Sequence record: MN850584.1
Direction: 5' to 3' (one strand)
DNA length: 64,000 nucleotides
Origin: Escherichia phage arall
The notes beneath the pieces are model-generated. The model saw only the letters and a program-made list of their open reading frames with translations. It searched no databases and was not told the origin of the DNA. Within the stretch, counting starts at the first letter, position 1. The number at the start of each line of letters is the position of its first letter. The translations under genes were made by a program, and so were the position numbers. Shown here one piece after another: positions 5,738 through 41,933 of this stretch.

Positions 5738-5761
5738 CTCACTGAAAAAGAGATTAACATC

Positions 5762-6001
5762 ATGGCTAAATCTAAAATGTACAACGGTCACAAAAATAAA
5801 ACTCATTGGAATGTAAGCCTTTGGATCAACAACGATGAAGGTTTTTATAATCTTGCGCGTGAATTTATCGCAGCTAACACCAATAAGAATGACGCAGCGC
5901 GTGATATGATGTTATTTCTTGAAAGTATGGATCAAGATAAAACGCCAGACGGATTCAAGTTCAGTAAAACCGCGATCCGTGCCGCTATGGTTGGAATGTA
6001 A
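5762..6001 (+). CDS. Hypothetical early protein (79 aa)
   Basis: ORF after cassette. Confidence 0.6.
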   Translation: MAKSKMYNGHKNKTHWNVSLWINNDEGFYNLAREFIAANTNKNDAARDMMLFLESMDQDKTPDGFKFSKTAIRAAMVGM

Positions 6002-6096
6002 AGGAGACATAAAAATGAAACATCGTTCGACCTATCTCACAAAACGTTTTAGCTTAGATCATAAATTGGGCTACTACGGAAGAAATAGAAAATAAT

Positions 6097-6155
6097 TTGA
6101 CAACGTTTTAAATTAGTGTAAGATATATCACATAAGGCGGGAAATGGTTTCCCGC
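6097..6155 (+). promoter_or_regulatory. Early promoter cassette: TTGACA-16-TAAGAT + hairpin GCGGGAAA-TGG-TTTCCCGC
   Basis: Module. Confidence 0.7.
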
Positions 6156-6178
6156 CAAATCAAAGAAAGGTTATAATT

Positions 6179-6406
6179 ATGGCTATCGTTATTGTTCGCG
6201 TATCCGGTACGGTTGGAAGCTCCCAGGTAGTAGCAGTTATCACAGAGAAGAAAGGGGATGATCTTCACTCTTCCTTGAATAGCTGGGCGGTCGCTAATTT
6301 TGGTCAGTGGTCGAGCGTCGAGTATATCGAATCCTACCAGGTGCCAACGATTAGCCTGACCGATCTCAACGTTGATCGTCTGTTATGCCTGGATGAATTA
6401 ATCTGA
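6179..6406 (+). CDS. Hypothetical early protein (75 aa)
   Basis: ORF after cassette. Confidence 0.6.
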   Translation: MAIVIVRVSGTVGSSQVVAVITEKKGDDLHSSLNSWAVANFGQWSSVEYIESYQVPTISLTDLNVDRLLCLDELI

Positions 6407-12117: not shown

Positions 12118-12258
12118 ATGAATAACCATACCATGAAGATCATAAGGCGCTTACAACGTGTTTTAGACCGCTTATTTTTAATTTCTTCATGCAACTATCT
12201 GGCAAAAACAGCCTTTTTCTTGTCTTTCCTCTTAAATGATAATCATTCTTATTTATAG
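12118..12258 (+). CDS. Possible small ORF (46 aa)
   Basis: Good RBS AAGGAGCAG-ATG but lies in otherwise non-coding AT-rich region. Confidence 0.3.
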   Translation: MNNHTMKIIRRLQRVLDRLFLISSCNYLAKTAFFLSFLLNDNHSYL

Positions 12259-12698
12259 CTGATTATTTATGCAATAAACTGCATAATTCAATAATGATAA
12301 TCATTCTTAACTTATGACCATCTAACCTATAAAATAATAAGTTATCTAACTAAATTAAAACTAATTATCTTACTTTTATTTATAACTTACTGTTACTATC
12401 TCATTGATAACCTTATATTAAACAACAATAACTAATATAAATCATTACTAAGCTAACTATAATCTATCTAACCCTTAAAACTACAACTATAATCTATCGA
12501 ATTGTTGCACAAAGTAACTATTAAATTGTTAGTAACATTGCTAAATAATTAATATCCTATCTATTTATGATCTAATCTTTACCTTCCTATTTATTACCTA
12601 ACTAATCATTTCATACAGTAATCATTGCATACAGTAACTATGACAAGAAATATAATTCGCAAGCGTATCATTAGCAGCCTATGCCGGACACATAGGCG

Positions 12699-13147: not shown

Positions 13148-13166
13148 GCAAATGATAATCATTATC
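13148..13166. promoter_or_regulatory. Fur-box-like 19-mer GCAAATGATAATCATTATC
   Basis: 17/19 match to recalled E. coli Fur consensus GATAATGATAATCATTATC. Confidence 0.4.
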
Positions 13167-13332
13167 AGCTATCTTCCACGGGTGGCACTATTTCACGCCA
13201 GATCATTTCATTTGGCAAGGTGTATATAGATGTTTAGACTTGCCAAGCCATTGATTTACTTAGAATTTATCTGTTTTGTTGTGAGTAGTACCTTTCTTGC
13301 TTAGAAAATAATCAAAAGTCTTATAAGTCATT

Positions 13333-13365
13333 GAATGATAATGCAAATGATAATTATTCTCATTG
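13333..13365. promoter_or_regulatory. GATAAT-repeat element (GAATGATAATGCAAATGATAATTATTCTCATTG)
   Basis: Two GATAAT hexamers plus ATTCTCATT half-site shared with 2353-2409 cluster. Confidence 0.4.
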
Positions 13366-14997: not shown

Positions 14998-15210
14998 ATG
15001 TGTAATGACAGATACATTCTTCGTGTATCTGATAAGTCTCCTATGTTTGACTGGCGGGGCTGGTGGCTACTAGCTCCGATGCAAGGTCTGACAGACGTGG
15101 AAAAGGAGGCTTATGTGTATACAAAAGAAGAGATAGAAGATAACCTTTATTTGACAGATAACATTAAGAATGGTATCTTTGAGTGTAAATTGAAAGGAGA
15201 GGAAGAATGA
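14998..15210 (+). CDS. Hypothetical protein (70 aa)
   Basis: Tightly packed. Confidence 0.5.
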   Translation: MCNDRYILRVSDKSPMFDWRGWWLLAPMQGLTDVEKEAYVYTKEEIEDNLYLTDNIKNGIFECKLKGEEE

Positions 15211-15506
15211 CTATTACAGAAAAACTGCGCTGTATTGCAAAGCAAAGTGGAGAAGGTTTATGGTTTCCTATTGAGGAAATTATTCAGGACTGTTATGATC
15301 AGGCTAAGACTGGCAAATACTCCAAAGCATTTAAACCATCTGTTTTCGGTTTGGATGATTATCCAAAAAATAAACAAGCAAAGAAACGCCAAGTTGATTT
15401 GATTGATCTTGCTATGGAAGCACTACGAGAGCGTGGACTTAGTAAGGTGTATGCTTTAAACACCAAAGAGGGTTTTGTAGATTCAGTGATCGTAGATTGG
15501 CATTAA
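15207..15506 (+). CDS. Hypothetical protein (99 aa)
   Basis: Start overlaps stop (ATGA). Confidence 0.55.
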   Translation: MTITEKLRCIAKQSGEGLWFPIEEIIQDCYDQAKTGKYSKAFKPSVFGLDDYPKNKQAKKRQVDLIDLAMEALRERGLSKVYALNTKEGFVDSVIVDWH

Positions 15507-15515
15507 GGAGAAACC

Positions 15516-15884
15516 ATGCAAGAGAATAGTAAAGTGTGTAGCATGAAAAGCAGCCCCTATTTGCTACAATTTTATGAGTGGTGGTTAGAACAAGAAGATA
15601 CAAACTTTAGCAAAAAGCATTATGGTCTTTGCACGTGTCTTGTAGACTTTTTGTACAATATTGCTTGGATAAAAGATGTTGAGAATGTATCAAAGCTCCA
15701 ATCCTCTGTACGAGAGGAAATGAAGGAACAATTTAAGAAAGCGGGTTTGAACCATTTACATCCGTTTAATACGGATTTCTCGCACTACTTTACGGAAACA
15801 GAACTAGGCATTGCACACCTTAATAAAGAACGTGTACAATGGGTGATTGATCGTATTCGTGATATGGAGGAATACAATGGTTAA
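15516..15884 (+). CDS. Hypothetical protein, paralog family A (LLQFY...HPFN...HLNKERVQWV)
   Basis: RBS AAGGAG; shares blocks with 16794..17378. Confidence 0.6.
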   Translation: MQENSKVCSMKSSPYLLQFYEWWLEQEDTNFSKKHYGLCTCLVDFLYNIAWIKDVENVSKLQSSVREEMKEQFKKAGLNHLHPFNTDFSHYFTETELGIAHLNKERVQWVIDRIRDMEEYNG

Positions 15885-16086
15885 GTTTAAAACTTTCTGT
15901 GCAATCACTGTTTGTCTTATTCTTGCATACGTGTTATTCTCTAGTATCATTCGTTTAGGTGAGTATATGGCAAGAGAAGCTCGTGAAAGTGAAGCTAAAA
16001 AAGAACAGTGCATCGTGTTAAAGCACCAAAGGGATGCTGAAAAATTTCTTGAACAGGATTGTGGGCGCTATGTGAATTATAATTAG
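15877..16086 (+). CDS. Small membrane-anchored protein, paralog family B (…KEQCIVLKHQRDAEKFLEQDC)
   Basis: Start at MVKFKTF overlapping previous stop; similar to 20875..21099. Confidence 0.55.
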   Translation: MVKFKTFCAITVCLILAYVLFSSIIRLGEYMAREARESEAKKEQCIVLKHQRDAEKFLEQDCGRYVNYN

Positions 16087-16095
16087 GAGGGAAGT

Positions 16096-16344
16096 ATGTT
16101 AGATATTTTTACCTTTGATCGTGTTGGTACACCGATTACCGAAGAAGAACGTACCAAAATTGAACAAGAATTGGATGCTTTACGTGCGTCTCTTACAGAC
16201 ACAGCCTCACTACAACGTGAAGCTGCACATCTCACAGAGATCACTGGTATTCAGTGGAGCACGGAGTGGGTTGTAATTACAATTGAAGCGGATATTTGGG
16301 GACATGAAGAGACGCTACGTACCGGAGTAGTAACGGTTTGGTGA
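16096..16344 (+). CDS. Hypothetical protein (82 aa)
   Basis: RBS AGGAGGGAAGT. Confidence 0.55.
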   Translation: MLDIFTFDRVGTPITEEERTKIEQELDALRASLTDTASLQREAAHLTEITGIQWSTEWVVITIEADIWGHEETLRTGVVTVW

Positions 16345-16390
16345 TAGATGTTATTCTTTTGTGTTTCTTGATATATAAATAGGAGGGTTT

Positions 16391-16615
16391 ATGGTAAAAC
16401 GTCTGGAATGGGATGCGTGTACTGCTCACGCTTGCCACTGTGATATTGTTGAAGATCCTAATGGAGAGATGGTGTATTATGAAGATTACGAAGCATTGCA
16501 CAATGCTGTGATTGCTTTACTGGATGATATTAGCTCACGCTATCCAGGACAACAATTCACGTGTCCACATATCCAACTATTAGCCGAACTTACGGAGTAT
16601 CCAAGTGTTCCATAA
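16391..16615 (+). CDS. Hypothetical Cys-containing protein, paralog family C (CDIVxDPxGxxV..DY)
   Basis: RBS AGGAGGG; similar to 21760..22023. Confidence 0.55.
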   Translation: MVKRLEWDACTAHACHCDIVEDPNGEMVYYEDYEALHNAVIALLDDISSRYPGQQFTCPHIQLLAELTEYPSVP

Positions 16616-16616
16616 T

Positions 16617-16784
16617 ATGGGTGTCCCTGAACAACTGCTCTTTATTGTAGGATTAGTAGGCTTATTGGCGGCTGGCGCTAAAGCCGCTTCTCACACGCAT
16701 CACATAATGTTAAGATTTCTGTTCCTACTCCCTTCTATCCTTGTATTATTAGTCATATTGATTGATAACATTTTTCACAATTAA
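16617..16784 (+). CDS. Small membrane protein (55 aa)
   Basis: Start 1 nt after previous stop; two hydrophobic segments. Confidence 0.45.
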   Translation: MGVPEQLLFIVGLVGLLAAGAKAASHTHHIMLRFLFLLPSILVLLVILIDNIFHN

Positions 16785-16793
16785 GGAGAGGTT

Positions 16794-17378
16794 ATGAATA
16801 AAATTATACCAAGCAGTTATGAATTATTGCAGTTTTATGTATATTACTTAGACTGGGTTAATAGATCGAATGTTAAAGACAATGCGATGTTTAGTAAAAA
16901 CATCTGTTTAACAGAAAGTATCTTCCGTTATTGGCACACAGGTAGAAAGTGTACACACAGTGAAGCTATGCGCATTGTAGGAGAATATCTGGAGCAATTG
17001 CAAAAAGCAGAGCTACCTGTCCTTCACCCATTCAATGAATCTAAAGAAGAATTAGAACAAGAGTGTAGAGAAGGTAAGTGCCATTTGAATGAAAAACGTA
17101 TCGAATGGGTGAGGCAACGTTTAGCCGATGCAGGAAAGCCTCCTAGTGACTCTGACTATACGTGGTATGATGTAGAGGGTTTAGTTCAAGGTTTTGAGGC
17201 TTGTGCTATAGATAATACCAACTTTGCCAAAGTTTTATGTGAGGCTTATGATCTGGCAGATAAAATCCGAAATCACGGATGGAAACAAGAGCATAAAGAA
17301 TCATATGAACGCCTTGACAAGATTTTCAAACAGATCTATTCTAACCACAAGAAGATGTTCCAAATGGAGGATGTGTAA
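16794..17378 (+). CDS. Hypothetical protein, paralog family A (194 aa)
   Basis: RBS AAGGAGAGG; LLQFY/HPFN/HLNEKRIEWV blocks. Confidence 0.6.
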   Translation: MNKIIPSSYELLQFYVYYLDWVNRSNVKDNAMFSKNICLTESIFRYWHTGRKCTHSEAMRIVGEYLEQLQKAELPVLHPFNESKEELEQECREGKCHLNEKRIEWVRQRLADAGKPPSDSDYTWYDVEGLVQGFEACAIDNTNFAKVLCEAYDLADKIRNHGWKQEHKESYERLDKIFKQIYSNHKKMFQMEDV

Positions 17379-18064
17379 TGAAAGAGATTATGTTTGAAGG
17401 GCATTGTTACGAAGTTCCAGACAATGCAAATTTCATGGCTCGTGATATCACTGGAGATGTGTTCTGGTTTGAAGATGAACCTATGTTTTCTTCGAACAAA
17501 CACTGGTTTTCACAACAATCTTCTTCGGAAAATATGACTTTTGGCTACGTAGAGCCTAAAGTGCGCTGCAAAGCAGCTTCTTCTTTGGTAAAAATTTCCC
17601 AAGATGATCAAGAAAATACTCAAGATGTTGTTAGTGCGCTACTGAAGTACATTGCAGAACTTGAGAAGAAAATTAAAGAAGCAGAAACTAAGGTGAAAGC
17701 ACGATCAGCAATCATCGAAGCCATGTCTGAACGTATTTTAGAACTAGAAGATTTGTGTGGAGAGGCTTATCAAGTGGTTGGTGCGCTGGCTTGTGAAGCA
17801 CAAATGTTTGAAACTTCAGAACAAGTTTCACATATGTTAGATAATTTGAGTGAATGTAAAATGATTCATGATGATGTATTGCCATTTTGTTGCAATGTTA
17901 ACAAAACAGAGCAAACACAAGATTCAGAAACAGTTTATGTTCCGCTAATGTGTGTTCCAGATCATCTAAAAGGTGTATTCTCTTGTAAATGGTCGCTGTT
18001 GAGCGTTACTAATTGTGGTGAAAACTATTCTGCCAACATTGAATTGCTAAAACACGTTAAATAA
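17378..18064 (+). CDS. Hypothetical protein with central coiled-coil (228 aa)
   Basis: Overlapping stop/start; heptad-like segment LLKYIAELEKKIKEAETKVKA. Confidence 0.6.
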   Translation: MKEIMFEGHCYEVPDNANFMARDITGDVFWFEDEPMFSSNKHWFSQQSSSENMTFGYVEPKVRCKAASSLVKISQDDQENTQDVVSALLKYIAELEKKIKEAETKVKARSAIIEAMSERILELEDLCGEAYQVVGALACEAQMFETSEQVSHMLDNLSECKMIHDDVLPFCCNVNKTEQTQDSETVYVPLMCVPDHLKGVFSCKWSLLSVTNCGENYSANIELLKHVK

Positions 18065-18074
18065 GGAGAGTAAT

Positions 18075-18479
18075 ATGTGGTCTGTTAAAATCAAATATAA
18101 TGCGCAGTATTATGGTGGAAAGCCTTACGAAGTTGTTATTTGTGACTGTATCTCTAAAGAAGTTGCACAGCTTTGTGGCGCTGGTGTTAGTGAAGCTATG
18201 AACAAAATGCATAACTCTACTGTGCGTTACCTGGATCAAGATATTCCAGAAGATGTAAATGACTATGCTTACGAAATTATTTACAGTGAAGGTAAAAAGC
18301 TCTCTATTGAAGATGCACTTAAAGCACTACCTGCTATGTGCAACCCGACACCAGAAGCAGTTAAAGAGATTTTACCAGAATCCAACCCCGATGAATATGC
18401 CTCTATGGTTGCTTCAGATATGTGGAATCTCTGTCGAGAAACTATGATTAAAAATCTGGTGGAAATGGCGCATGAGTAA
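18075..18479 (+). CDS. Hypothetical protein (134 aa)
   Basis: RBS AAGGAGAG. Confidence 0.6.
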   Translation: MWSVKIKYNAQYYGGKPYEVVICDCISKEVAQLCGAGVSEAMNKMHNSTVRYLDQDIPEDVNDYAYEIIYSEGKKLSIEDALKALPAMCNPTPEAVKEILPESNPDEYASMVASDMWNLCRETMIKNLVEMAHE

Positions 18480-18690
18480 AACGCACTTTATACATCCGTT
18501 TGATCCAAAGAACAAGGCGGTTATACACCGCCGTTGGACTGAAACGCGCATTACAAAATGTCCTGTGCCAGCAGCACAGGAATATAACAAAACATATAAA
18601 GCAGAATTTGTGGAGTACACCTTTGTAAATAACAAAGGGAAGGAGGTTTATGTTCCAGAATACTGCCTTTGGATAAAATGGGAGGAATAA
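18472..18690 (+). CDS. Hypothetical protein (72 aa)
   Basis: Overlaps previous gene by 8 nt. Confidence 0.5.
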   Translation: MSKTHFIHPFDPKNKAVIHRRWTETRITKCPVPAAQEYNKTYKAEFVEYTFVNNKGKEVYVPEYCLWIKWEE

Positions 18691-18857
18691 TGCAAACATT
18701 TTTTATCGACAAGTTTAATAAAAATATGAACACGTGGATGGCAACATTCACTATGCAATTTGCGTCATTTAAAGAGGCTCAAGAATGGTGCGATCAGCAC
18801 AAGGATTTTGATTTTTACTATCAAATTAATACAAATCTTTCTCCAGAGGATAAATAA
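18690..18857 (+). CDS. Hypothetical protein (55 aa)
   Basis: Start at MQTFF, RBS GGGAGGAATA, TAATG overlap. Confidence 0.5.
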   Translation: MQTFFIDKFNKNMNTWMATFTMQFASFKEAQEWCDQHKDFDFYYQINTNLSPEDK

Positions 18858-18858
18858 T

Positions 18859-19203
18859 ATGTTGGCTGATATTGAAATCCTTATGTACCGCCAAGGTATG
18901 ATCAAAATGTGGCTGGATTCTTTTAGCAACATATACTGCACAGTGCGATCAGCAGAGGAGCGTAAAACGCTTATTTTATCTGCTATTGTTGATAAACAAC
19001 GTTTCTTCAAAGAAGTTTTGCAAACAGGCTTCTCCGATGCAGGAGTAGAGATTGCAACTCTTAGTCTTGGGGTGCTGTCTTACTTGGAATCCGTTGTTTT
19101 ATATGTCTTCTCTTTAGAAGAACACTTGCAATTTGAAGCATTAAAACTTATCTTAGACGCTGCAATTGACATAGAACAAAATCGAATTGATTCTTTTGAA
19201 TAA
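18859..19203 (+). CDS. Hypothetical protein (114 aa)
   Basis: Start at MLADIE (ORF-track upstream extension lacks RBS). Confidence 0.5.
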   Translation: MLADIEILMYRQGMIKMWLDSFSNIYCTVRSAEERKTLILSAIVDKQRFFKEVLQTGFSDAGVEIATLSLGVLSYLESVVLYVFSLEEHLQFEALKLILDAAIDIEQNRIDSFE

Positions 19204-19219
19204 AAATAAGGAGAAAACC

Positions 19220-19678
19220 ATGCAAGAGGTTAAACATTATCCACATGGTCGTAGTTTTGTAGCTGTATGGCATGTTCCTGCTCGTAATGAACTGTTTTGT
19301 GCATCTTTTCATTACAAAGATGGACAATATTTCACCTATGACGAGACGATGGATGATTTTATCCCAGAGTGCGATCATGGGTATACACCAATGTTCTTTA
19401 AACGTATGAAAGCTCGTTTCTTCGTTACAGATGTTGATGGTGAACCTACTTGGCACATCGAAGAAGATTGGCAAGATTCTGTGGATATTAAAGAAGCCCC
19501 AGAATGGGCTACACTACTGGTACACGTGAAAACCCCTACCCTTGACATTATGGCGTGGGTTAATCATGATGATACCCATTACCAATACATAAACAGTAGC
19601 ACAGAGATTTCTGGTGAGATTATTGGTCGTTGGAAGCCTACGAATCAGGTTGCTATTGTCGGATATAAGACAGTATAA
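19220..19678 (+). CDS. Hypothetical protein (152 aa)
   Basis: Start at MQEVKH with RBS AAGGAGAAAACC. Confidence 0.6.
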   Translation: MQEVKHYPHGRSFVAVWHVPARNELFCASFHYKDGQYFTYDETMDDFIPECDHGYTPMFFKRMKARFFVTDVDGEPTWHIEEDWQDSVDIKEAPEWATLLVHVKTPTLDIMAWVNHDDTHYQYINSSTEISGEIIGRWKPTNQVAIVGYKTV

Positions 19679-19679
19679 T

Positions 19680-19874
19680 ATGAAAAGTAGCGTAGATTGG
19701 GATGATTTATCCGCTTTTGAAAAATGGTTCTTAGGTAGTGGTTGTTATGCAGATGGGGATCTCGAAAGAGATCCTTCTGGAAACTACATTATGCCATTAA
19801 CCCAAGGTTTTTATGAGTGCTGGTGCGCAGCACAAAACAACGTACTGAATAAGGAGACAACACAATGCAATTAA
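19680..19874 (+). CDS. Hypothetical protein (64 aa)
   Basis: Start at MKSSVDW right after previous stop. Confidence 0.5.
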   Translation: MKSSVDWDDLSAFEKWFLGSGCYADGDLERDPSGNYIMPLTQGFYECWCAAQNNVLNKETTQCN

Positions 19875-20104
19875 ACATCGGACAACCAATTTTTGATGCA
19901 GATACTGGTCAATATGCAGTGATTGTTGCTCGTATGAGCGGTGATGACTTTATTGTTTCAGAACTACTGGAATCAGATCCGCAACTGCGTGTGGTTTGTG
20001 ACCTATATCTTCGAGACGAAAGTGATCGCATTGCACTGAAAGAAGATGGTATGCTTTACTACACCTGGACTAGAGATCCTGGTGTAAAGGAGGTAGAGGT
20101 ATAA
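19865..20104 (+). CDS. Hypothetical protein (79 aa)
   Basis: RBS AAGGAGACAACAC. Confidence 0.55.
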   Translation: MQLNIGQPIFDADTGQYAVIVARMSGDDFIVSELLESDPQLRVVCDLYLRDESDRIALKEDGMLYYTWTRDPGVKEVEV

Positions 20105-20403
20105 TGGTAAGGAATAGGGGTTTACATAAAAGAAGACACCTTACTTACTGGCATCGCAAAGTACATGAACCTGTATCAAAGAAAGAATGGCAATACCTTC
20201 CTTATGGAAAGGAGCGAAGGAAGTATTTGTTAGCTCATTTAAGGGTACATGGTTCGCTTCCTGTTAACAGTAAGTGGCAATTGCAAACAGCTTATGACGA
20301 AGATATGAAATATCTGTTAAAGAGAGGCATTATTTGCCTTGTTAAGATAGGACGATGGAAATCTCGTCAATCTTATATCGTACTTAAACAGGAGAAACGA
20401 TGA
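20104..20403 (+). CDS. Basic hypothetical protein (99 aa), possibly nucleic-acid binding
   Basis: RBS AAGGAGGTAGAGG; K/R-rich. Confidence 0.55.
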   Translation: MVRNRGLHKRRHLTYWHRKVHEPVSKKEWQYLPYGKERRKYLLAHLRVHGSLPVNSKWQLQTAYDEDMKYLLKRGIICLVKIGRWKSRQSYIVLKQEKR

Positions 20404-20651
20404 ATATCAAAGATGTTGTAGCATACGTAGAAGATGAAGTTAAAAACCATACAAGTTTACTGAAAGTAATGGTTGTGGTTAAAGATGGTATTGGACAAGT
20501 AAACGTACAACATGTCTTATCTGACACTGTATATAATGTGTTTGAATGTAAAGAAACACCTCATGGAGTACGTGTGGTTTATATTGATAACAATTTCAAA
20601 GAATGTGTGAGACATACCTTAGAAAATGAACTAAGGATCACAATCTTATGA
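20400..20651 (+). CDS. Hypothetical protein (83 aa)
   Basis: ATGA overlap. Confidence 0.55.
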   Translation: MNIKDVVAYVEDEVKNHTSLLKVMVVVKDGIGQVNVQHVLSDTVYNVFECKETPHGVRVVYIDNNFKECVRHTLENELRITIL

Positions 20652-20821
20652 GTTATTATGTTGTACCTTATGCCAATAAGTGGAGAGTAAGAGAAACTTG
20701 TTTTCTGTTCTCCTGGTGGGCTACATTCGGAGATGGCTGTGGAAATGATACAGGGAAGCCTGTAGAGTATGACACAAAAGAAGAATGTGAACAGTGGATA
20801 AAATTAACACAAAGATGTTGA
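20648..20821 (+). CDS. Small Cys/Trp-containing protein (57 aa)
   Basis: ATGA overlap with previous gene. Confidence 0.4.
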   Translation: MSYYVVPYANKWRVRETCFLFSWWATFGDGCGNDTGKPVEYDTKEECEQWIKLTQRC

Positions 20822-20846
20822 CACGATCTTAACTTCTTGTTAGTAT
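20818..20846 (+). promoter_or_regulatory. Sigma70-like promoter TTGACA-17-TAGTAT (internal to array)
   Basis: Hexamers upstream of 20875. Confidence 0.5.
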
Positions 20847-20874
20847 CAATGTGTACTAACGATAAGGAGGGTTT

Positions 20875-21099
20875 ATGAAGTCTGTAAACAAGTTGCAACA
20901 ATTTTTGTTATCAACAGCAATCTTTTTGCTTTTGTTAATTGGTATTCTGTATGGTGCATCTAACTTATACAATCTACATAATGATGTAGAACAGAATAAA
21001 GAGAAGTGCATCATTCTAAAACACAAGAAACAAGCAGAAGATTTCTTAAAGAATAAGTGTTACAACTACATTGATTATGAGGAGACAAACAATGATTAA
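20875..21099 (+). CDS. Small membrane-anchored protein, paralog family B
   Basis: RBS AAGGAGGG; N-terminal TM; KEKCIILKHKKQAEDFLKNKC block. Confidence 0.55.
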   Translation: MKSVNKLQQFLLSTAIFLLLLIGILYGASNLYNLHNDVEQNKEKCIILKHKKQAEDFLKNKCYNYIDYEETNND

Positions 21100-21334
21100 A
21101 GAATTAGGTATGCGAGTATACAGTGAGTGGACTCCAAGCAATGGCCCAGGAGTTGTTGCAGCTAAATGTATCAATGGTCGTATTGAGTACCTGGAAGGGT
21201 ATGAAGATAATGAAGAATTAGTAGATTATGCTAAATCTTTTATTGAAGATGATACAGACTTTATTGTATTATATGATACAGGAGAGTTAGAGTATGGATA
21301 TGATGGAGATGGGGATATCTTTGAACTTCAATAA
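21092..21334 (+). CDS. Acidic hypothetical protein (80 aa)
   Basis: Start at MIKELG with RBS GAGGAG. Confidence 0.5.
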   Translation: MIKELGMRVYSEWTPSNGPGVVAAKCINGRIEYLEGYEDNEELVDYAKSFIEDDTDFIVLYDTGELEYGYDGDGDIFELQ

Positions 21335-21541
21335 GAGTAGTAAGTAAGGTATAAAGAGTATATAGTTAGTTATAGAGTTAGTAACATTACATATACTCTT
21401 TCCATGTATAACATGGAATATTCTCTACCTCGCTATCGCTCGGTATATAAGATTAGGGTAGCATGTTTTTTACGAAAAGTAAAACTGTTTATACCGATTG
21501 ATAGCAGGTTTTTAATAGATTCTATCTGTGAGGAGTAGAAA

Positions 21542-21760
21542 GTGTACAAATTATATAAAGGAAAAGATAAGTTTACGGGTAATACATCTGGTTTCTATGT
21601 AACACCACGCGGCGTTGCCGTATTTGATTGGATTCCTGGTACTCCAGATCGTGAAATGATCTCTCTTGTAAAACTGTCGGAACAAGAGTACACTTACGGT
21701 GACATTACAACATTCTATTCTCGTGCAGAAAATCCAAAACTGATTGCGGAGTGGGAATAA
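21542..21760 (+). CDS. Hypothetical protein (72 aa), GTG start
   Basis: RBS GAGGAG 8 nt upstream of GTG. Confidence 0.5.
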   Translation: MYKLYKGKDKFTGNTSGFYVTPRGVAVFDWIPGTPDREMISLVKLSEQEYTYGDITTFYSRAENPKLIAEWE

Positions 21761-22023
21761 TGGTTACACGATATGATTTAGAGGTGTACAGCCAAGGTGC
21801 TGCTGGTCAATGTGATATTGTACCAGATCCAGAAGGAGACTATGTTCTTCTTGCTGATTACAACAAGCTAGAAGAAAGACTTCTGGCTGTGTATGCTAAA
21901 GAGAACAAAACAATCTGTCCTTATTGCAATGGAATGGGTTGGGTGGTTGCAGATGTTGGACAAATGTATGAGTGTGTACCTTGTAAAACCACAGGCTTTA
22001 TTGAAAAGGATACTGACAAATGA
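21760..22023 (+). CDS. Cys-rich hypothetical protein, paralog family C (CPYCNG...CVPC)
   Basis: TAATG overlap; CxxC pairs suggest Zn binding. Confidence 0.55.
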   Translation: MVTRYDLEVYSQGAAGQCDIVPDPEGDYVLLADYNKLEERLLAVYAKENKTICPYCNGMGWVVADVGQMYECVPCKTTGFIEKDTDK

Positions 22024-22268
22024 CTGTAGCAGATAAAATGAGAGAACTGGCAGAAAACGCAGAACTTAACAAAGCAAAGGAGAGTTTACAAAACATCTAC
22101 GCGTATATTGAAAGAGCAGCTAAAGATGGAGACAGAGAAGCCGCTATATACACGCTTTATCCAACTTTTGTAAAAGTTAGTTTGGATGCTGAAGGTTTTT
22201 CAACTTTTATTGATACAGAAACATCTCATTACGATGAAAACTTTACTCGAATAGTTATTCGATGGTAA
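22020..22268 (+). CDS. Hypothetical protein (82 aa)
   Basis: ATGA overlap. Confidence 0.55.
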   Translation: MTVADKMRELAENAELNKAKESLQNIYAYIERAAKDGDREAAIYTLYPTFVKVSLDAEGFSTFIDTETSHYDENFTRIVIRW

Positions 22269-22373
22269 ATTTCTGATATTTATGCGCCCTGGCTACCTGG
22301 GCGTAATAAATTCAGCTTATATTTGATCCGCGCCTTCGGCGCTTAGGCAAAGCCACGCCACATAGGAGAGTTT

Positions 22374-22784
22374 ATGTTCAAATGGTTAAAAGAGTTTCTA
22401 ACATCTTTGGCAGAACCTAAGCAAGATGTTATTAAAAGCTCTATCACAGGAAAACCGCTTGTTATAGTTACAGGCGTCTTTGGTCATGGGTTTTCTCTTA
22501 AACAAACAGACATAGGTTTACAGGGATGTTTGATTAGTTTTAGAATCACTCAATTAGGAGATAATAGACAAACAATCTTAGACCTTTTCAATGGGGAGTT
22601 TGATGATTATTTATCTAAGAGTGGTAAAGAACGTCTGATCGAACATATAAAACACCGCTATGAGCATGGTGGTTACTACTTAGATACAAAACGTAATGCA
22701 CAAGGTGATCTTGACATAGTTCGTATAGCGTGGGATAATGAATTTAAAACTAAACTTGGTAAACTTCTGGAGGAGTTGTGGTAA
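22374..22784 (+). CDS. Hypothetical protein (136 aa)
   Basis: RBS AGGAGAG. Confidence 0.55.
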   Translation: MFKWLKEFLTSLAEPKQDVIKSSITGKPLVIVTGVFGHGFSLKQTDIGLQGCLISFRITQLGDNRQTILDLFNGEFDDYLSKSGKERLIEHIKHRYEHGGYYLDTKRNAQGDLDIVRIAWDNEFKTKLGKLLEELW

Positions 22785-25020: not shown

Positions 25021-25027
25021 CACATAA

Positions 25028-25049
25028 ACCCGCTTCGGCGGGTTTTCTT
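25028..25049 (+). terminator. Rho-independent terminator, identical to 111-133
   Basis: ACCCGC-TTCG-GCGGGT + TTTCTTG. Confidence 0.75.
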
Positions 25050-25316: not shown

Positions 25317-25396
25317 ATGACTTTATTAGAGAGTATCGTAGTGTTAATCATCTTTATCATTGTTGTCATAGGATATTTTACAGAAGACTAAAATAA

Positions 25397-25429
25397 AGCC
25401 CCTAGAATCGCTTCTAGGGGCTTTTGTTT
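25397..25429. terminator. Bidirectional terminator hairpin (11-bp stem AGCCCCTAGAA/TTCTAGGGGCT) at convergence of + and - blocks
   Basis: Long perfect stem, T-runs on both sides. Confidence 0.7.
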
Positions 25430-37738: not shown

Positions 37739-38005
37739 TTACTCCGCAATCTGAGCCATGAATTCACGTAGTTCAGAAAAACCTCCTACGTGGGTTAGCT
37801 GTTCACCATCTTCCACAAAAATCTGAGGAAATGTGCGTGGTAGAACACCTGTTTTCTCTAAAACCAGATTCTGAATCTGATCTAAAGAATAGTCTTCATC
37901 TAAGGTAAGATATTTAAAATCCTGTTCACGCTGTTCTAGTAGAATCTTAGCGTTAGTGCAGAAAGGACAATTTGGTTTACCGTAGATAATAAAATTCATT
38001 TTCAC
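37739..38005 (-). CDS. Glutaredoxin-like protein (CPFC active site)
   Basis: IIYGKPNCPFCTNAK, ~88 aa thioredoxin fold size. Confidence 0.8.
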   Translation of the reverse strand: MKMNFIIYGKPNCPFCTNAKILLEQREQDFKYLTLDEDYSLDQIQNLVLEKTGVLPRTFPQIFVEDGEQLTHVGGFSELREFMAQIAE

Positions 38006-38832
38006 TCCTTGTTTAAAAGTATAGTTAAAGTTCTTACAATACCGCTATCAACACTTCGCGGATTTAAAGTAGGATCTGTTTTTAAATAAGATGTTGCTGG
38101 TCTGACTGCTTTGGAATTATAGGTTGAAGCAGATACAGGATTAACTGTAACAGATAAATCTATAACAAGAAATATCTTTCGTGCAAAATCATACCAAGAA
38201 ATATAATCTGCACCTGCATAGTGTACAACTTTACTATTTACACCATCTTTTACAAGTTTAAAAATTGTTTCTGCAAGATCAGGTGCATAAGTAGGACATG
38301 ACAAATGATCACATACTACATTAAATTCTTTTTGACCACCGTTGTAGCGTTCCAACATAGTTTTCAAAAAGTTATGTCCAAATTCACTATAAACAGAAGC
38401 TGTTCTGATAATAAGTGCTGTAGGACAAACTGTTTGTACTAAAGTTTCACCTAATTGTTTACTGTAACCGTAGGTGTTCAAGGGGTTTGTTTTACTATCT
38501 TCTGTGCCAGCAACATGCCCATCAAAAACATAGTCTGTTGAAATATGTACAAACTGTATCAGTAAATCATTACATGCTTTGGCAATGTTTGTTGCACCGT
38601 ATGCATTAACATTTATACAGGTGTTAACATCTTCTTCAGCTTTATCTACTGCCGTGTAAGCCGCACAATTCACAACAACATCAGGCACGTGCTGTACAAG
38701 ACTATTCATAACATCTTTAAAGTTGGTAATGTCTATATCACTTGCTTCAATCAAAATAACATCTTCGGGCGCAACTTTTGCCAAAGACTGTCCTAATTGA
38801 CCTTTTGAACCAAAGATTAAAAATTTTGTCAA
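38002..38832 (-). CDS. rmlD: dTDP-4-dehydrorhamnose reductase
   Basis: N-terminal GxxGQLG Rossmann, HISTDYVFDG, YGYSK. Confidence 0.85.
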   Translation of the reverse strand: MTKFLIFGSKGQLGQSLAKVAPEDVILIEASDIDITNFKDVMNSLVQHVPDVVVNCAAYTAVDKAEEDVNTCINVNAYGATNIAKACNDLLIQFVHISTDYVFDGHVAGTEDSKTNPLNTYGYSKQLGETLVQTVCPTALIIRTASVYSEFGHNFLKTMLERYNGGQKEFNVVCDHLSCPTYAPDLAETIFKLVKDGVNSKVVHYAGADYISWYDFARKIFLVIDLSVTVNPVSASTYNSKAVRPATSYLKTDPTLNPRSVDSGIVRTLTILLNKE

Positions 38833-40273: not shown

Positions 40274-41263
40274 TTAAACTTTATTTTCCCACCACTCTTT
40301 GTTATCTACATACCAATCAATGGTTGAATAAAGTTTTTCTTCAAATGTGCCTTTAGCTTTCCACCCTAATTCCTTTTCAATCTTATAAGGATTCACTTCG
40401 TATCTTAAATCATGTCCAGGTCTATCTGTAACCATTTCAATGAGGCTACAAGCATCTGTTTCAGATGGATACACCGCATCCATATAATCACAAATCATAT
40501 AGATTACATCAATATTAGTTCTAGGGTTTCTGCTCCCAATATTATATGTTTCTCCAGATTTGCCTTTAGTTACTACTAGGTGTAATGCTTCTGCGTGATC
40601 GTCAACGTATAACCAATCTCTTACTTGAAGACCATTGCCATAAACAGGGATTGGTTTATGCATCAAGATATTTGTTATCGTTTTAGGTATTAGTTTTTCT
40701 GGATGATGATATGCTCCAAAATTATTTGAACAATTTGTTATAACTGTCGGAATACCATAAGTACGATGCCATGCTCTTACCAAATGATCGCTTGCAGCTT
40801 TAGATGCAGCATATGGACTACTTGGTTTATAAGGATTCTGTTCTGTAAACGGATAATCCCCTTCTTCCATATCACCATACACTTCATCTGTTGAAATATG
40901 ATGGAACATTTTAAGATTTGATTTATCTCCCATTAAACGAACAGCTTCTAGAAGATTAAATGTTCCAACAATATTTGAATTTATAAAAACACTCGGTGAT
41001 GCTATTGAATTATCTACGTGACTCTCTGCTGCAAGATGCATTATATAATCTGGATTAACATCTGCCACAATCTTAGCAGTTAACTGCGCATTTGTCAAGT
41101 CAACACGACAAAACTTTACATTAGGTGTTTCTGATAAATTTCTAGGGTCTGAAGCGTAACCCCATTTATCTATAACGTAAATATCATTCTTAGTATTTTT
41201 AGCCAGGAAACGAACTACTGCACTTCCAATAAAGCCTAAACCACCTGTTACTAAGTATTTCAT
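40274..41263 (-). CDS. rmlB: dTDP-glucose 4,6-dehydratase
   Basis: [60 protein letters not shown]. Confidence 0.92.
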
Positions 41264-41470: not shown

Positions 41471-41797
41471 TTACCAAACGTGTTGAGAAATAATAGTTTC
41501 CGTTTCAATGTTATATTTTTCAAGAAGTTGTGCGTAGGCTTCTTTTGCATTCTTATTTAGTTGCTCAAGATCTACAGCTATACTTCCTTCGCCACCTTCT
41601 AAATAAATGCCATATATGCAATAAGATTCATCAGCATCATAGAAAGGAGAGATACGGCTTAAATCAAGACCTTCTTGTAAGAACCAATTAAAATCTCCAT
41701 CAAATTCTTCTTCAATTCTAGGATCTTCTCCTACAGCCTCTTCCCATTTATTAAAAGGTGCACCCTGTAACATACGCCATGCAATATCAACCCCCAC
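41471..41797 (-). CDS. Hypothetical protein (108 aa)
   Basis: ORF. Confidence 0.5.
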   Translation of the reverse strand: MGVDIAWRMLQGAPFNKWEEAVGEDPRIEEEFDGDFNWFLQEGLDLSRISPFYDADESYCIYGIYLEGGEGSIAVDLEQLNKNAKEAYAQLLEKYNIETETIISQHVW

Positions 41798-41933
41798 TAT
41801 CTTCCTCCTCTTCTTTTTCTTCTGTATGAACGAAACCTAAGCCGTTACAATTCCAACAAGGAATAAATTGTTCCATACTAACAATAAAATTCCCAGTGCC
41901 GCCGCAGATAGGACAAATACTTACATCGTCCAT
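41787..41933 (-). CDS. Possible small zinc-ribbon protein (48 aa; CPICGG...CWNCNG)
   Basis: Two CxxC pairs; fills gap, no strong RBS. Confidence 0.3.
   Translation of the reverse strand: MDDVSICPICGGTGNFIVSMEQFIPCWNCNGLGFVHTEEKEEEEDSGG

What the first reader, a model, noticed from the sequence alone, without database searches (positions are those of the whole stretch)
15516..22023. Three paralogous gene pairs indicate a segmental duplication
Family A is 15516..15884 and 16794..17378, sharing LLQFY, HPFN and HLNxxRxxWV blocks. Family B is 15877..16086 and 20875..21099, sharing a TM helix and a KEqCIxLKHxxxAExFL block. Family C is 16391..16615 and 21760..22023, sharing CDIVxDPxG. Gene order is partly conserved between the two copies, pointing to an ancient duplication and divergence of an early module.
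Basis: seen in the sequence. Interest (0 to 1): 0.5.

Follow-up and report, generated by a model that had tools for sequence, protein, structure and literature searches.

The report
Three paralog pairs in phage early region
Three pairs of small, anciently duplicated genes of unknown function sit in the fast-changing early-gene region of a phi92-like E. coli phage; the paralogy is real, but a single three-gene block duplication cannot be shown, and this kind of gene-family growth is ordinary for large phages.

Summary
The window is a phi92-like Justusliebigvirus (98% identical to phages Antha and EmilieFrey). The region holds the small genes just after the left terminal repeat: phi92 gp006-gp010 and gp022-gp025.

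All three claimed pairs are real. BLASTP gives E 2e-11, 1e-10 and 7e-7. Smith-Waterman z-scores are 15, 16 and 9, with 0 of 1000 shuffles reaching the observed score. They are the three best non-overlapping pairs in an all-vs-all of 308 ORFs, and PHROG families cross-hit within each pair.

The genus has exactly two members of each family, ordered A1 B1 C1 A2 ... B2 ... C2.

A single A-B-C block duplication is not demonstrated:
- There is no residual DNA similarity.
- None of the 14+ intervening genes pair.
- The collinear order has about a 7% chance probability.
- A1 and A2 fall in different subclades, each with its own counterpart in the sister genus, where A has 7-10 copies.
- C similarity covers only a ~45-aa N-terminal module that occurs with other tails elsewhere.
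- B sits beside different neighbours in different genera.

A-headed collinear repeat units do recur in the sister genus, so block duplication remains plausible.

Function is unknown. A is a widespread five-helix phage domain with no Pfam model. B is a membrane-anchored peptide with two invariant Cys and the highest dN/dS in the region. C is a hairpin-helix module.

The parts
15516..15884 (+). A1 (phi92 gp006 orthologue), 122 aa, a single family-A domain (phrog_2510)
   Evidence: ORF; orthology; PHROG hit 1.2e-25. AF2 model is a five-helix bundle, pLDDT 81.5, pTM 0.76. dN/dS 0.07.
15877..16086 (+). B1 (gp007), 69 aa. N-terminal hydrophobic anchor plus a ~45-aa tail with the invariant motif E-x-C-x3-K-x4-A-x2-FL-x3-C. 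Its start overlaps the A1 stop by 8 nt.
   Evidence: dN/dS 0.41, the highest in the region.
16096..16344 (+). X1, an 82-aa gene (phrog_17168) inserted between B1 and C1. It is absent from phi92 and about half of the genus, and belongs to none of the three families.
16391..16615 (+). C1 (gp008), 74 aa. C-domain type 1 (aa 1-45) plus a conserved helical tail.
   Evidence: AF2 model: hairpin aa 3-21 (low confidence), helix 30-50 (high confidence). dN/dS 0.06.
16794..17378 (+). A2 (gp010), 194 aa. Family-A domain at aa 1-113 (window 16794-17132) plus an unrelated 80-aa C-terminal extension.
   Evidence: The extension is not a second A domain (2 bits). dN/dS 0.10.
20818..20846 (+). Sigma-70-like promoter match (TTGACA-17-TAGTAT with upstream TG) in the 53-nt gap before B2. 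Consensus match only.
   Evidence: The total number of promoter-like sites in the region is no higher than in shuffles, so this is weak evidence.
20875..21099 (+). B2 (gp022), 74 aa, same architecture as B1. Found only in Justusliebigvirus. phi92 annotators predicted a signal peptide.
   Evidence: dN/dS 0.37. Replacements cluster at aa 28-51, outside the hydrophobic segment.
21760..22023 (+). C2 (gp025), 87 aa. C-domain type 2 (aa 1-46) fused to a DnaJ-like zinc finger with two CxxCxGxG-type motifs (CPYCNGMG, CVPCKTTG).
   Evidence: dN/dS 0.06.

Best explanation
The six genes are genuine, anciently diverged paralogs belonging to three unrelated small-protein families. They sit in the highly plastic early-gene array that follows the left terminal repeat of phi92-like phages.

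The duplications predate the Justusliebigvirus/Phapecoctavirus split. All six copies are maintained by selection as distinct genes. The present A1-B1-C1-A2...B2...C2 order is most likely the product of several local events rather than one clean A-B-C block duplication. These events include tandem gene duplication (especially of family A), short-segment duplication, fusion of the N-terminal C module to different tails, and frequent insertion and deletion of neighbouring small genes.

Inferred, not shown:
- A proteins are soluble five-helix proteins that bind a host or phage partner, acting in host takeover or counter-defence.
- B proteins are membrane-anchored peptides whose ~45-aa tail, held by a Cys pair, faces the periplasm. 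They take part in a fast-evolving envelope interaction such as superinfection exclusion.
- C proteins share a hairpin-helix interaction module carrying different effector tails.
For: Paralogy is significant.

The genes are real and constrained. RBS sites are annotated in phi92. dN/dS is 0.06-0.10 for A1, A2, C1 and C2 across 7 genomes.

The duplications are ancient:
- No DNA similarity remains.
- A1 is closer to phAPEC8_0018/0019 (E-17) than to A2 (E-10), and A2 groups with phAPEC8_0051 in 28/30 bootstraps.
- C1 corresponds to phAPEC8_0036 and C2 to phAPEC8_0062.
- B1 is closer to the single B of phAPEC8 and FKP3 (42%) than to B2 (32%).

The families behave independently:
- A has 7-10 copies, including tandem doublets and triplets, in phAPEC8 and phiWec186. 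It forms 2- and 3-domain fusions in other phages.
- FKP3 has one B but no A.
- Kagunavirus HSE2 has a tandem pair of C-domain genes with different tails and no A or B nearby.
- The C-domain occurs with at least four different tails.
- B lies after different genes in three genera.

The region is plastic:
- The X1 indel.
- gp011 is missing from EC.P2.
- Natural deletion chimeras P0198 (C1::gp023, with a 9-nt microhomology junction) and P0002 (A2::gp015).

B shows a special evolutionary mode. dN/dS is 0.41 and 0.37 against a median of about 0.09. Both Cys are invariant and replacements fall outside the hydrophobic segment.

A fold: a confident five-helix model. There are 1,879 representative clusters, all unnamed, with no Pfam hit. 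Fold matches are only to uncharacterized phage proteins.
Against: The strict A-B-C / A-B-C collinearity is what a tandem block duplication predicts. So is the fact that Justusliebigvirus has exactly two copies of each family.

Divergence ratios are similar for A and B: about 40% identity to the cross-genus counterpart versus about 31% to the paralog. This is compatible with one event.

Collinear A-headed repeat units occur in the sister genus: A..gp001-like twice in phAPEC8, and A..gp001-like..C-domain twice in phiWec186.

Deep branches of the family-A tree are poorly resolved.

All functional statements are inference. There is no expression, localisation or phenotype data, and 'early' timing rests on position only.
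Confidence: 0.55

Rival explanations
1. An ancestral compact A-B-C early module was duplicated once in tandem (A-B-C-A-B-C). Later insertion of unrelated small genes, mainly between A2 and B2, together with sequence divergence, produced the present arrangement.
For: The order is collinear and same-strand, and the genus has exactly two copies per family. All three splits predate the genus divergence. Gene insertion between family members is directly observed: X1 sits between B1 and C1 in only part of the genus. A-headed collinear repeat units occur in the sister genus. In phi92, A1-B1-C1 are directly adjacent.
Against: The chance probability of the pattern is 6.7%, which is not significant. No intervening gene pairs and no DNA trace remains. 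A1 and A2 fall in different subclades of a 7-10-copy family. In phAPEC8, the counterparts of B1 and C1 lie beside an A of a different clade (0030) than A1's. The A-clade/C-type pairing is swapped in phiWec186 relative to the window. C homology is restricted to an N-terminal module that recombines with other tails. No B2-type gene exists outside the genus.
Confidence: 0.3
2. The second copies are xenologs. A2, B2 and/or C2 were acquired separately by recombination with other phages carrying members of the same widespread families, rather than by duplication within the lineage.
For: Families A and C are widespread in unrelated phages, including Pectobacterium, Rhizobium, Erwinia and Salmonella siphophages and Kagunavirus. 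The C-domain is found with many tails. Phage early regions are mosaic.
Against: The closest relatives of A2, C1 and C2 are all in the sister genus at syntenic positions. This argues for vertical inheritance since before the genus split. B is essentially confined to Stephanstirmvirinae, and B2 scores slightly better against B1 than against any other B. No donor lineage closer than the paralog was found for any copy.
Confidence: 0.1
3. The similarities are chance or compositional (short motifs in AT-rich small ORFs), and there is no real paralogy.
For: The B and C alignments are short (30 and 44 aa).
Against: z = 9-16, with 0 of 1000 shuffles reaching the observed score. Database-corrected E is 3e-4 or better in the all-vs-all. 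Independent PHROG profile cross-hits occur within each pair. The same invariant residues are conserved in orthologues from other genera.
Confidence: 0.01

Closest known systems
Hyperplastic early-gene regions and multigene families of large lytic phages (T4-superfamily hyperplastic regions; rV5/PVP-SE1/phi92-like early ORFan arrays). Comparison from general knowledge, not tested here.
   Same: Dense same-strand arrays of small, mostly unannotated genes next to the genome end. Frequent insertions and deletions between close relatives. Local paralog families, and genes dispensable in some isolates.
   Different: The three families here have no described members. No repeated promoter/stem-loop cassettes flank the genes, which instead abut or overlap.
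PHROG families phrog_2510/27059/6418 (A), phrog_15662/23204 (B) and phrog_23083/22955/23941 (C), all of 'unknown function'
   Same: Each window protein hits its own PHROG at E of 1e-25 or better, and its partner's PHROG at 1e-4 to 1e-17.
   Different: PHROGs split each pair into separate families and record no function. The paralogy link and the multi-copy behaviour are not annotated there.
DnaJ-type CxxCxGxG zinc-finger mini-proteins of phages (Pfam PF00684 DnaJ_CXXCXGXG; phrog_13972/26056)
   Same: The C2 C-terminal half has CPYCNGMG...CVPCKTTG. It hits phrog_13972 (3e-9) and phrog_26056 (1e-8). A 48-aa stand-alone copy of this finger lies at window 41787-41933 on the - strand.
   Different: The Pfam score (15.9 bits) is below the gathering cutoff of 32.7. 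Only one two-motif unit is present. The finger is not shared with C1, so it is not part of the paralogy.
Lar-like restriction alleviation proteins (phrog_3592; Pfam PF14354)
   Same: C1 aa 2-48 weakly match the first 50 positions of phrog_3592 (E 7.7e-4).
   Different: No Pfam hit at E up to 1. C2 does not hit it. The match covers only about a quarter of the profile. Treated as unconfirmed.
Small early membrane proteins of lytic phages involved in superinfection exclusion (e.g. T4 Imm/Sp). Analogy from general knowledge.
   Same: B proteins are short. They have one N-terminal hydrophobic segment, sit in the early region, and evolve fast outside that segment.
   Different: No sequence similarity to any known exclusion protein. 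Topology and function are untested.

Membership tests
Segmental (block) duplication | Two or more gene pairs with statistically significant homology | tested here: met
   Three pairs: z 9-16, with 0 of 1000 shuffles reaching the observed score; all-vs-all E 3e-4 or better.
Segmental (block) duplication | Same order and orientation in both copies, beyond chance | tested here: inconclusive
   The order A-B-C / A-B-C on the + strand is met. The pattern has 6/90 = 6.7% probability for three two-copy families. All genes in the region share one strand, so orientation is uninformative.
Segmental (block) duplication | Contiguity: the intervening genes of the two blocks also correspond, or the blocks are compact | tested here: not met
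   Block 1 spans 1.1 kb and 'block 2' spans 5.2 kb. X1, gp009, gp011-gp021, gp023 and gp024 pair with nothing in the other block. gp023 against the C profile gives hhalign P 0.06.
Segmental (block) duplication | Residual nucleotide similarity or junction repeats | tested here: not met
   blastn with word size 7 finds only 38 nt at 76% and 30 nt at 77%, both inside the conserved motifs.
Segmental (block) duplication | Congruent phylogenies and equal age of all pairs, with paralogs as reciprocal sisters | tested here: inconclusive
   All three splits predate the genus split. A1 and A2 lie in different subclades of a 7-10-copy family. The A-clade/C-type pairing differs between genera. Deep nodes are unresolved.
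Family A (phrog_2510-type five-helix phage domain) | ~110-aa domain with invariant F19, L38, P83-F84, R106, W109-V110 and near-invariant C39, H101 (A1 numbering) | tested here: met
   Both A1 and A2 align over the full domain. A2 lacks the aligned GLC Cys. HMM E 3e-39 and 4e-35.
Family B (phrog_15662/23204) | N-terminal hydrophobic segment plus a tail with invariant E43, C45, K49, A54, F57, L58, C62 (B1 numbering) | tested here: met
   Alignment of 7 sequences from 4 lineages. Both window copies carry every invariant residue.
C-domain (N-terminal module of phrog_23083/22955/23941) | M-V-x-R/K ... C-x-I-V-x-D-P-x-G-x2-V-x-Y-x-D-Y-x2-L at the N terminus | tested here: met
   A domain-only HMM hits C1 (1e-25) and C2 (3e-23), and no other ORF in the window or the rest of phi92.
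Lar restriction-alleviation family | Significant match to PF14354 or phrog_3592 over most of the profile | tested here: not met
   Only C1 matches, E 7.7e-4, covering 47 of 182 profile positions. No Pfam hit.
DnaJ CxxCxGxG zinc finger (PF00684) | Score above the Pfam gathering threshold; paired CxxCxGxG motifs | tested here: inconclusive
   The motifs are visible in the C2 sequence, and the phi92 annotators called it DnaJ-like. Pfam score is 15.9 against a cutoff of 32.7.
Known anti-phage defence components (PADLOC) / solved structures | Any significant profile or fold match | tested here: not met

The most novel reading that the evidence does not exclude
Family A could be a new class of phage counter-defence or host-takeover effectors. 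It has at least 1,879 representative clusters, no Pfam model, no solved-structure relative, up to 10 copies per genome, and 2-3-domain fusions. Its copy number might expand and contract like a gene accordion. In phi92-like phages it might work with a fast-evolving periplasm-facing peptide (B) and a hairpin-helix adaptor (C) as a three-part early module, duplicated to cover two host targets.
Probability: 0.12. Interest if true: 0.6.

Novelty: new member of a known kind. Interest (0 to 1): 0.3.

Why it matters
As a duplication story it is ordinary. Large lytic phages routinely carry small paralog families in their plastic early regions, and nothing here changes that picture.

It does yield three concrete leads for people studying phi92/BASEL-type phages:
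1. A very large, unannotated five-helix phage domain family that tends to amplify in tandem.
2. A pair of membrane-anchored Cys-pair peptides that are the fastest-evolving proteins of the early region. They are candidates for envelope-level phage-host or phage-phage conflict.
3. Natural deletion variants showing that the A2...B2 stretch is dispensable, which gives a ready-made genetic handle.

Tried and rejected
1. DNA-level dot-plot or repeat between 15500-17400 and 20800-22100: nothing beyond the motif-coding 30-38 nt.
2. Pairing of intervening genes (X1, gp009, gp023, the 44-aa ORF, gp024) with the other block: none.
3. gp023 as a cryptic C-family member. It follows B2 as C1 follows B1 in phi92, and it is the partner in the P0198 chimera. 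hhalign gives probability 0.9% and P 0.06, so it was rejected as unproven.
4. The A2 C-terminal 80 aa as a degenerate second A domain, as in the two-domain relatives: 2 bits, rejected. One search was uninformative because the profile contained A2 itself.
5. Further A, B or C copies elsewhere in the genome: none in the window or in phi92 50-148.6 kb. The '2-4 places' are therefore not further family members at HMM level (A1, A2 and presumably fragmentary or weak tblastn matches; not inspected).
7. The Lar-like lead for C1: too weak.
8. Linkage of A with C outside the subfamily: Kagunavirus HSE2 has C genes but no A or B.
9. Literature searches for phi92/Stephanstirmvirinae paralogs or early genes found no prior description.
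10. The first word-indexed homologue search with A1 alone returned only its own cluster.

Full report
**Identity and setting**

The window is a phi92-like myophage (Stephanstirmvirinae, Justusliebigvirus). Region 15000-22500 is 96-98% identical over its full length to 53 records, led by Escherichia phages Antha, EmilieFrey and Paula.

In phi92 this stretch begins about 2 kb after the left direct terminal repeat. It is a dense, same-strand array of small genes with annotated ribosome-binding sites.

Mapping to phi92:
- A1 15516-15884 = gp006
- B1 15877-16086 = gp007
- C1 16391-16615 = gp008
- 16617-16784 = gp009 (small membrane protein)
- A2 16794-17378 = gp010
- B2 20875-21099 = gp022
- 21092-21334 = gp023
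- 21542-21760 = gp024
- C2 21760-22023 = gp025

The window carries one extra gene, X1 (16096-16344, phrog_17168), between B1 and C1. phi92 and about half of the genus lack it. 'Early' expression is inferred from position only.

**Checking the observation**

All quoted motifs are present in both members of each pair.

- BLASTP: A 31% over 114 aa, E 2e-11; B 50% over 30 aa, E 1e-10; C 36% over 44 aa, E 7e-7.
- Shuffled controls: Smith-Waterman z of 15.2, 16.3 and 9.3, with no shuffle out of 1000 reaching the observed score.
- All-vs-all of the 308 ORFs of at least 45 aa in the whole window: these are the three best non-overlapping pairs.
- PHROG profiles independently cross-hit within each pair.

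Two qualifications apply. A2 shares only its first ~113 aa with A1, and its 80-aa tail is not a second A domain. C1 and C2 share only a ~45-aa N-terminal module. The rest of C2 is a DnaJ-like CxxCxGxG zinc finger that C1 lacks.

HMMs built from each family find exactly two A, two B and two C-domain genes in the window plus the remainder of the phi92 genome.

**Is it one segmental duplication?**

Against a simple block model:
- There is no nucleotide similarity between 15500-17400 and 20800-22100, except 38 nt and 30 nt inside the conserved C and B motifs.
- None of the other genes in or between the two 'copies' pair with each other. gp023 as a cryptic C member fails (hhalign P 0.06).
- 'Copy 1' spans 1.1 kb and 'copy 2' spans 5.2 kb, with twelve unrelated genes between A2 and B2.
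- For three two-copy families, the XYZ...XYZ pattern has probability 6/90 = 6.7% by chance. That is suggestive, not significant.

**Evidence from relatives**

Family A:
- It is a large multigene family in the sister genus. phAPEC8 has seven full copies plus a fragment, and phiWec186 has at least ten, including a tandem triplet.
- A1 is more similar to phAPEC8_0018/0019 (39-42% identity, E-17 to E-21) than to A2 (30%, E-10).
- In a distance tree, A2 groups with phAPEC8_0051 in 28/30 bootstraps, and A1 with the 0018/0019 clade in 20/30.
- So A1 and A2 are not each other's closest relatives, and their split predates the genus split.

Family C:
- C1 corresponds to phAPEC8_0036.
- C2 corresponds to phAPEC8_0062, which keeps the finger but appears to have lost most of the C module.
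- A stand-alone type-2 C-domain gene exists in phiWec186.

Family B:
- It is single-copy in phAPEC8, phiWec186 and the Klebsiella phage FKP3.
- Those copies are closer to B1 (38-42%) than B2 is (32%).
- B2-type genes exist only in Justusliebigvirus.

Overall gene order is collinear between genera: A1-like < B < C1-like < A2-like < gp024-like < C2-like. The arrangement is therefore old. All three duplications being pre-split is compatible with one event.

Details that disagree with a single event:
- In phAPEC8, B follows an A copy of a different clade (0030).
- In phiWec186, B follows a gp013-like gene.
- FKP3 has a B but no A at all in 31 kb of early region.
- The A-clade/C-type pairing is swapped between phiWec186 and the window.
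- Outside the subfamily, Kagunavirus HSE2 has two adjacent C-domain genes with different tails and no A or B.
- The C module occurs with at least four different tails.

Evidence for block duplication as a mode: paralogy order strings show A-headed collinear repeat units in the sister genus.
- phAPEC8: aa.b....c...a..b......a..ac
- phiWec186: aaa.b..ccde......a.b.e.....a..ad

Here b is gp001-like, c/d is gp005-like and e is the C-domain. Again the intervening genes are unpaired. Block-wise duplication followed by heavy gene turnover is therefore a credible mode in this subfamily.

My reading is a multi-event history (about 0.55) over one clean A-B-C duplication (about 0.3). Acquisition by horizontal exchange is a minor alternative.

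**What the proteins are**

Family A:
- AlphaFold2 with a shallow alignment gives a confident five-helix domain (pLDDT 81.5, pTM 0.76).
- In BFVD it matches only uncharacterized phage proteins from many genera.
- An exhaustive profile search finds 1,879 representative clusters at E up to 1e-3. Most are 100-120 aa, with many two-domain proteins and one three-domain protein.
- None is named, and none of twelve members tested hits Pfam.
- Invariant positions are F19, L38, P83-F84, R106 and W109-V110. C39 and H101 are nearly invariant.

Family B:
- It has an N-terminal hydrophobic segment and a ~45-aa tail with invariant E43, C45, K49, A54, F57, L58 and C62.
- The phi92 annotators predicted a signal peptide for gp022.

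The C module:
- It is modelled as a low-confidence beta-hairpin leading into a confident long helix.

PADLOC gives nothing for any of the six proteins.

**Selection**

Nei-Gojobori dN/dS was computed over seven Justusliebigvirus genomes for 28 shared early genes.
- A1 0.07, A2 0.10, C1 0.06 and C2 0.06 show strong purifying selection. Both copies of each are maintained, consistent with sub- or neo-functionalisation.
- B1 (0.41) and B2 (0.37) are the two highest values in the region. All other genes are at or below 0.30, with a median of about 0.09. B1 and B2 also have the highest dN.
- Replacements fall mainly outside the hydrophobic segment, and both Cys are invariant.
- Part of B1's variation is a two-allele C-terminal tail linked to the presence or absence of X1.

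Both B paralogs show this same pattern. It fits a surface-exposed interaction under conflict, such as superinfection exclusion or envelope targeting. That role is inference.

**Plasticity**

Several natural variants show how fluid the array is:
- P0198 sits on a 1,550-bp contig as gp005'-A1-B1-[C1 aa 1-32::gp023 C-terminal half]-gp024. The junction is a 9-nt microhomology, TATGAAGAT. This is a ~4.7-kb deletion removing the C1 tail, gp009, A2, gp011-gp021, B2 and the gp023 head.
- P0002 fuses the A2 domain to the C-terminus of gp015.
- EC.P2 lacks gp011.

These variants indicate that the second-copy region is dispensable in some populations.

**Verdict**

A single segmental duplication is neither required nor demonstrated. 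The phenomenon is an ordinary feature of large-phage early regions.

Literature searches found no prior description of these families or of this paralogy. Interest is modest. It rests on the size and anonymity of family A and on the distinctive evolution of the B pair.

Noticed in passing
window 12235-12251, 12293-12309, 13148-13167, 13346-13362 (also 2372-2390): A cluster of Fur-box-like palindromes (AATGATAATCATT...) lies in the AT-rich non-coding stretch upstream of the early genes, around the phi92 terminal-repeat boundary. 13148-13166 differs from the E. coli Fur consensus GATAATGATAATCATTATC at 2 positions. The window has 4 matches at up to 3 mismatches, against 0.03 expected. This may mean iron/Fur-responsive early promoters, or a phage operator.
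   Followed up: partly
L007 (Logan SRR3713844 contig), equivalent to window 15255-16049 + 16381-16493 + 21200-21812: A natural deletion chimera, P0198: C1 residues 1-32 fused in frame to the C-terminal half of gp023 at a 9-nt microhomology (TATGAAGAT). About 4.7 kb is removed, including A2, gp011-gp021 and B2.
   Followed up: yes
P0002 (166 aa); window 16794-~17140 joined to ~19040-19203: A second natural fusion variant. The A2 N-terminal domain ('...RLADAG') is joined to the C-terminus of the gp015 orthologue ('...VEIATLSL...'), implying deletion of gp011-gp014.
   Followed up: partly
window 16096-16344: An 82-aa gene (phrog_17168) is present in the window and in some relatives but absent from phi92 and others. 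Its presence correlates with an alternative C-terminal tail allele of B1.
   Followed up: partly
L011 (Escherichia phage EC.P2) 9216-9272: EC.P2 lacks the 228-aa gp011 orthologue (window 17378-18064) that follows A2 in the other genomes.
   Followed up: no
window 38002-38832 (-) and 40274-41263 (-): The only other sizeable paralog pair in the window is a pair of SDR-fold sugar-nucleotide enzymes: RmlD-like reductase and dTDP-glucose/GDP-mannose 4,6-dehydratase-like. They share 28% identity over 162 aa. This is ordinary superfamily similarity.
   Followed up: yes
window 41787-41933 (-): A 48-aa stand-alone zinc-finger mini-ORF resembles the C-terminal finger of C2. It hits DUF5351 and Zn_ribbon_19 below cutoff.
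   Followed up: partly
L010 (Kagunavirus HSE2) 5747-6204: Two adjacent C-domain genes, gp020 and gp021, have different tails. This is an independent tandem duplication of the C module in an unrelated siphophage.
   Followed up: yes
P0009-P0018 etc.; Burkholderia phage BcepSaruman gp339: Many family-A proteins contain two A domains in tandem, and one contains three. The domain therefore multiplies within genes as well as between genes.
   Followed up: partly
records MG065639, MG065689, MG065645, MG065656: Several GenBank records named 'Campylobacter phage' (flagged UNVERIFIED) match this E. coli Justusliebigvirus closely: 95-99% identical in DNA across the region, with identical A1 and C1 proteins. 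They are probably mislabelled or contaminant genomes.
   Followed up: no
window 25026-25045 and 25395-25424: Strong bidirectional terminator-like hairpins (8 and 13 bp stems) lie near the end of the + strand early array. They sit just before the strand switch seen in GC skew at about 26 kb.
   Followed up: no
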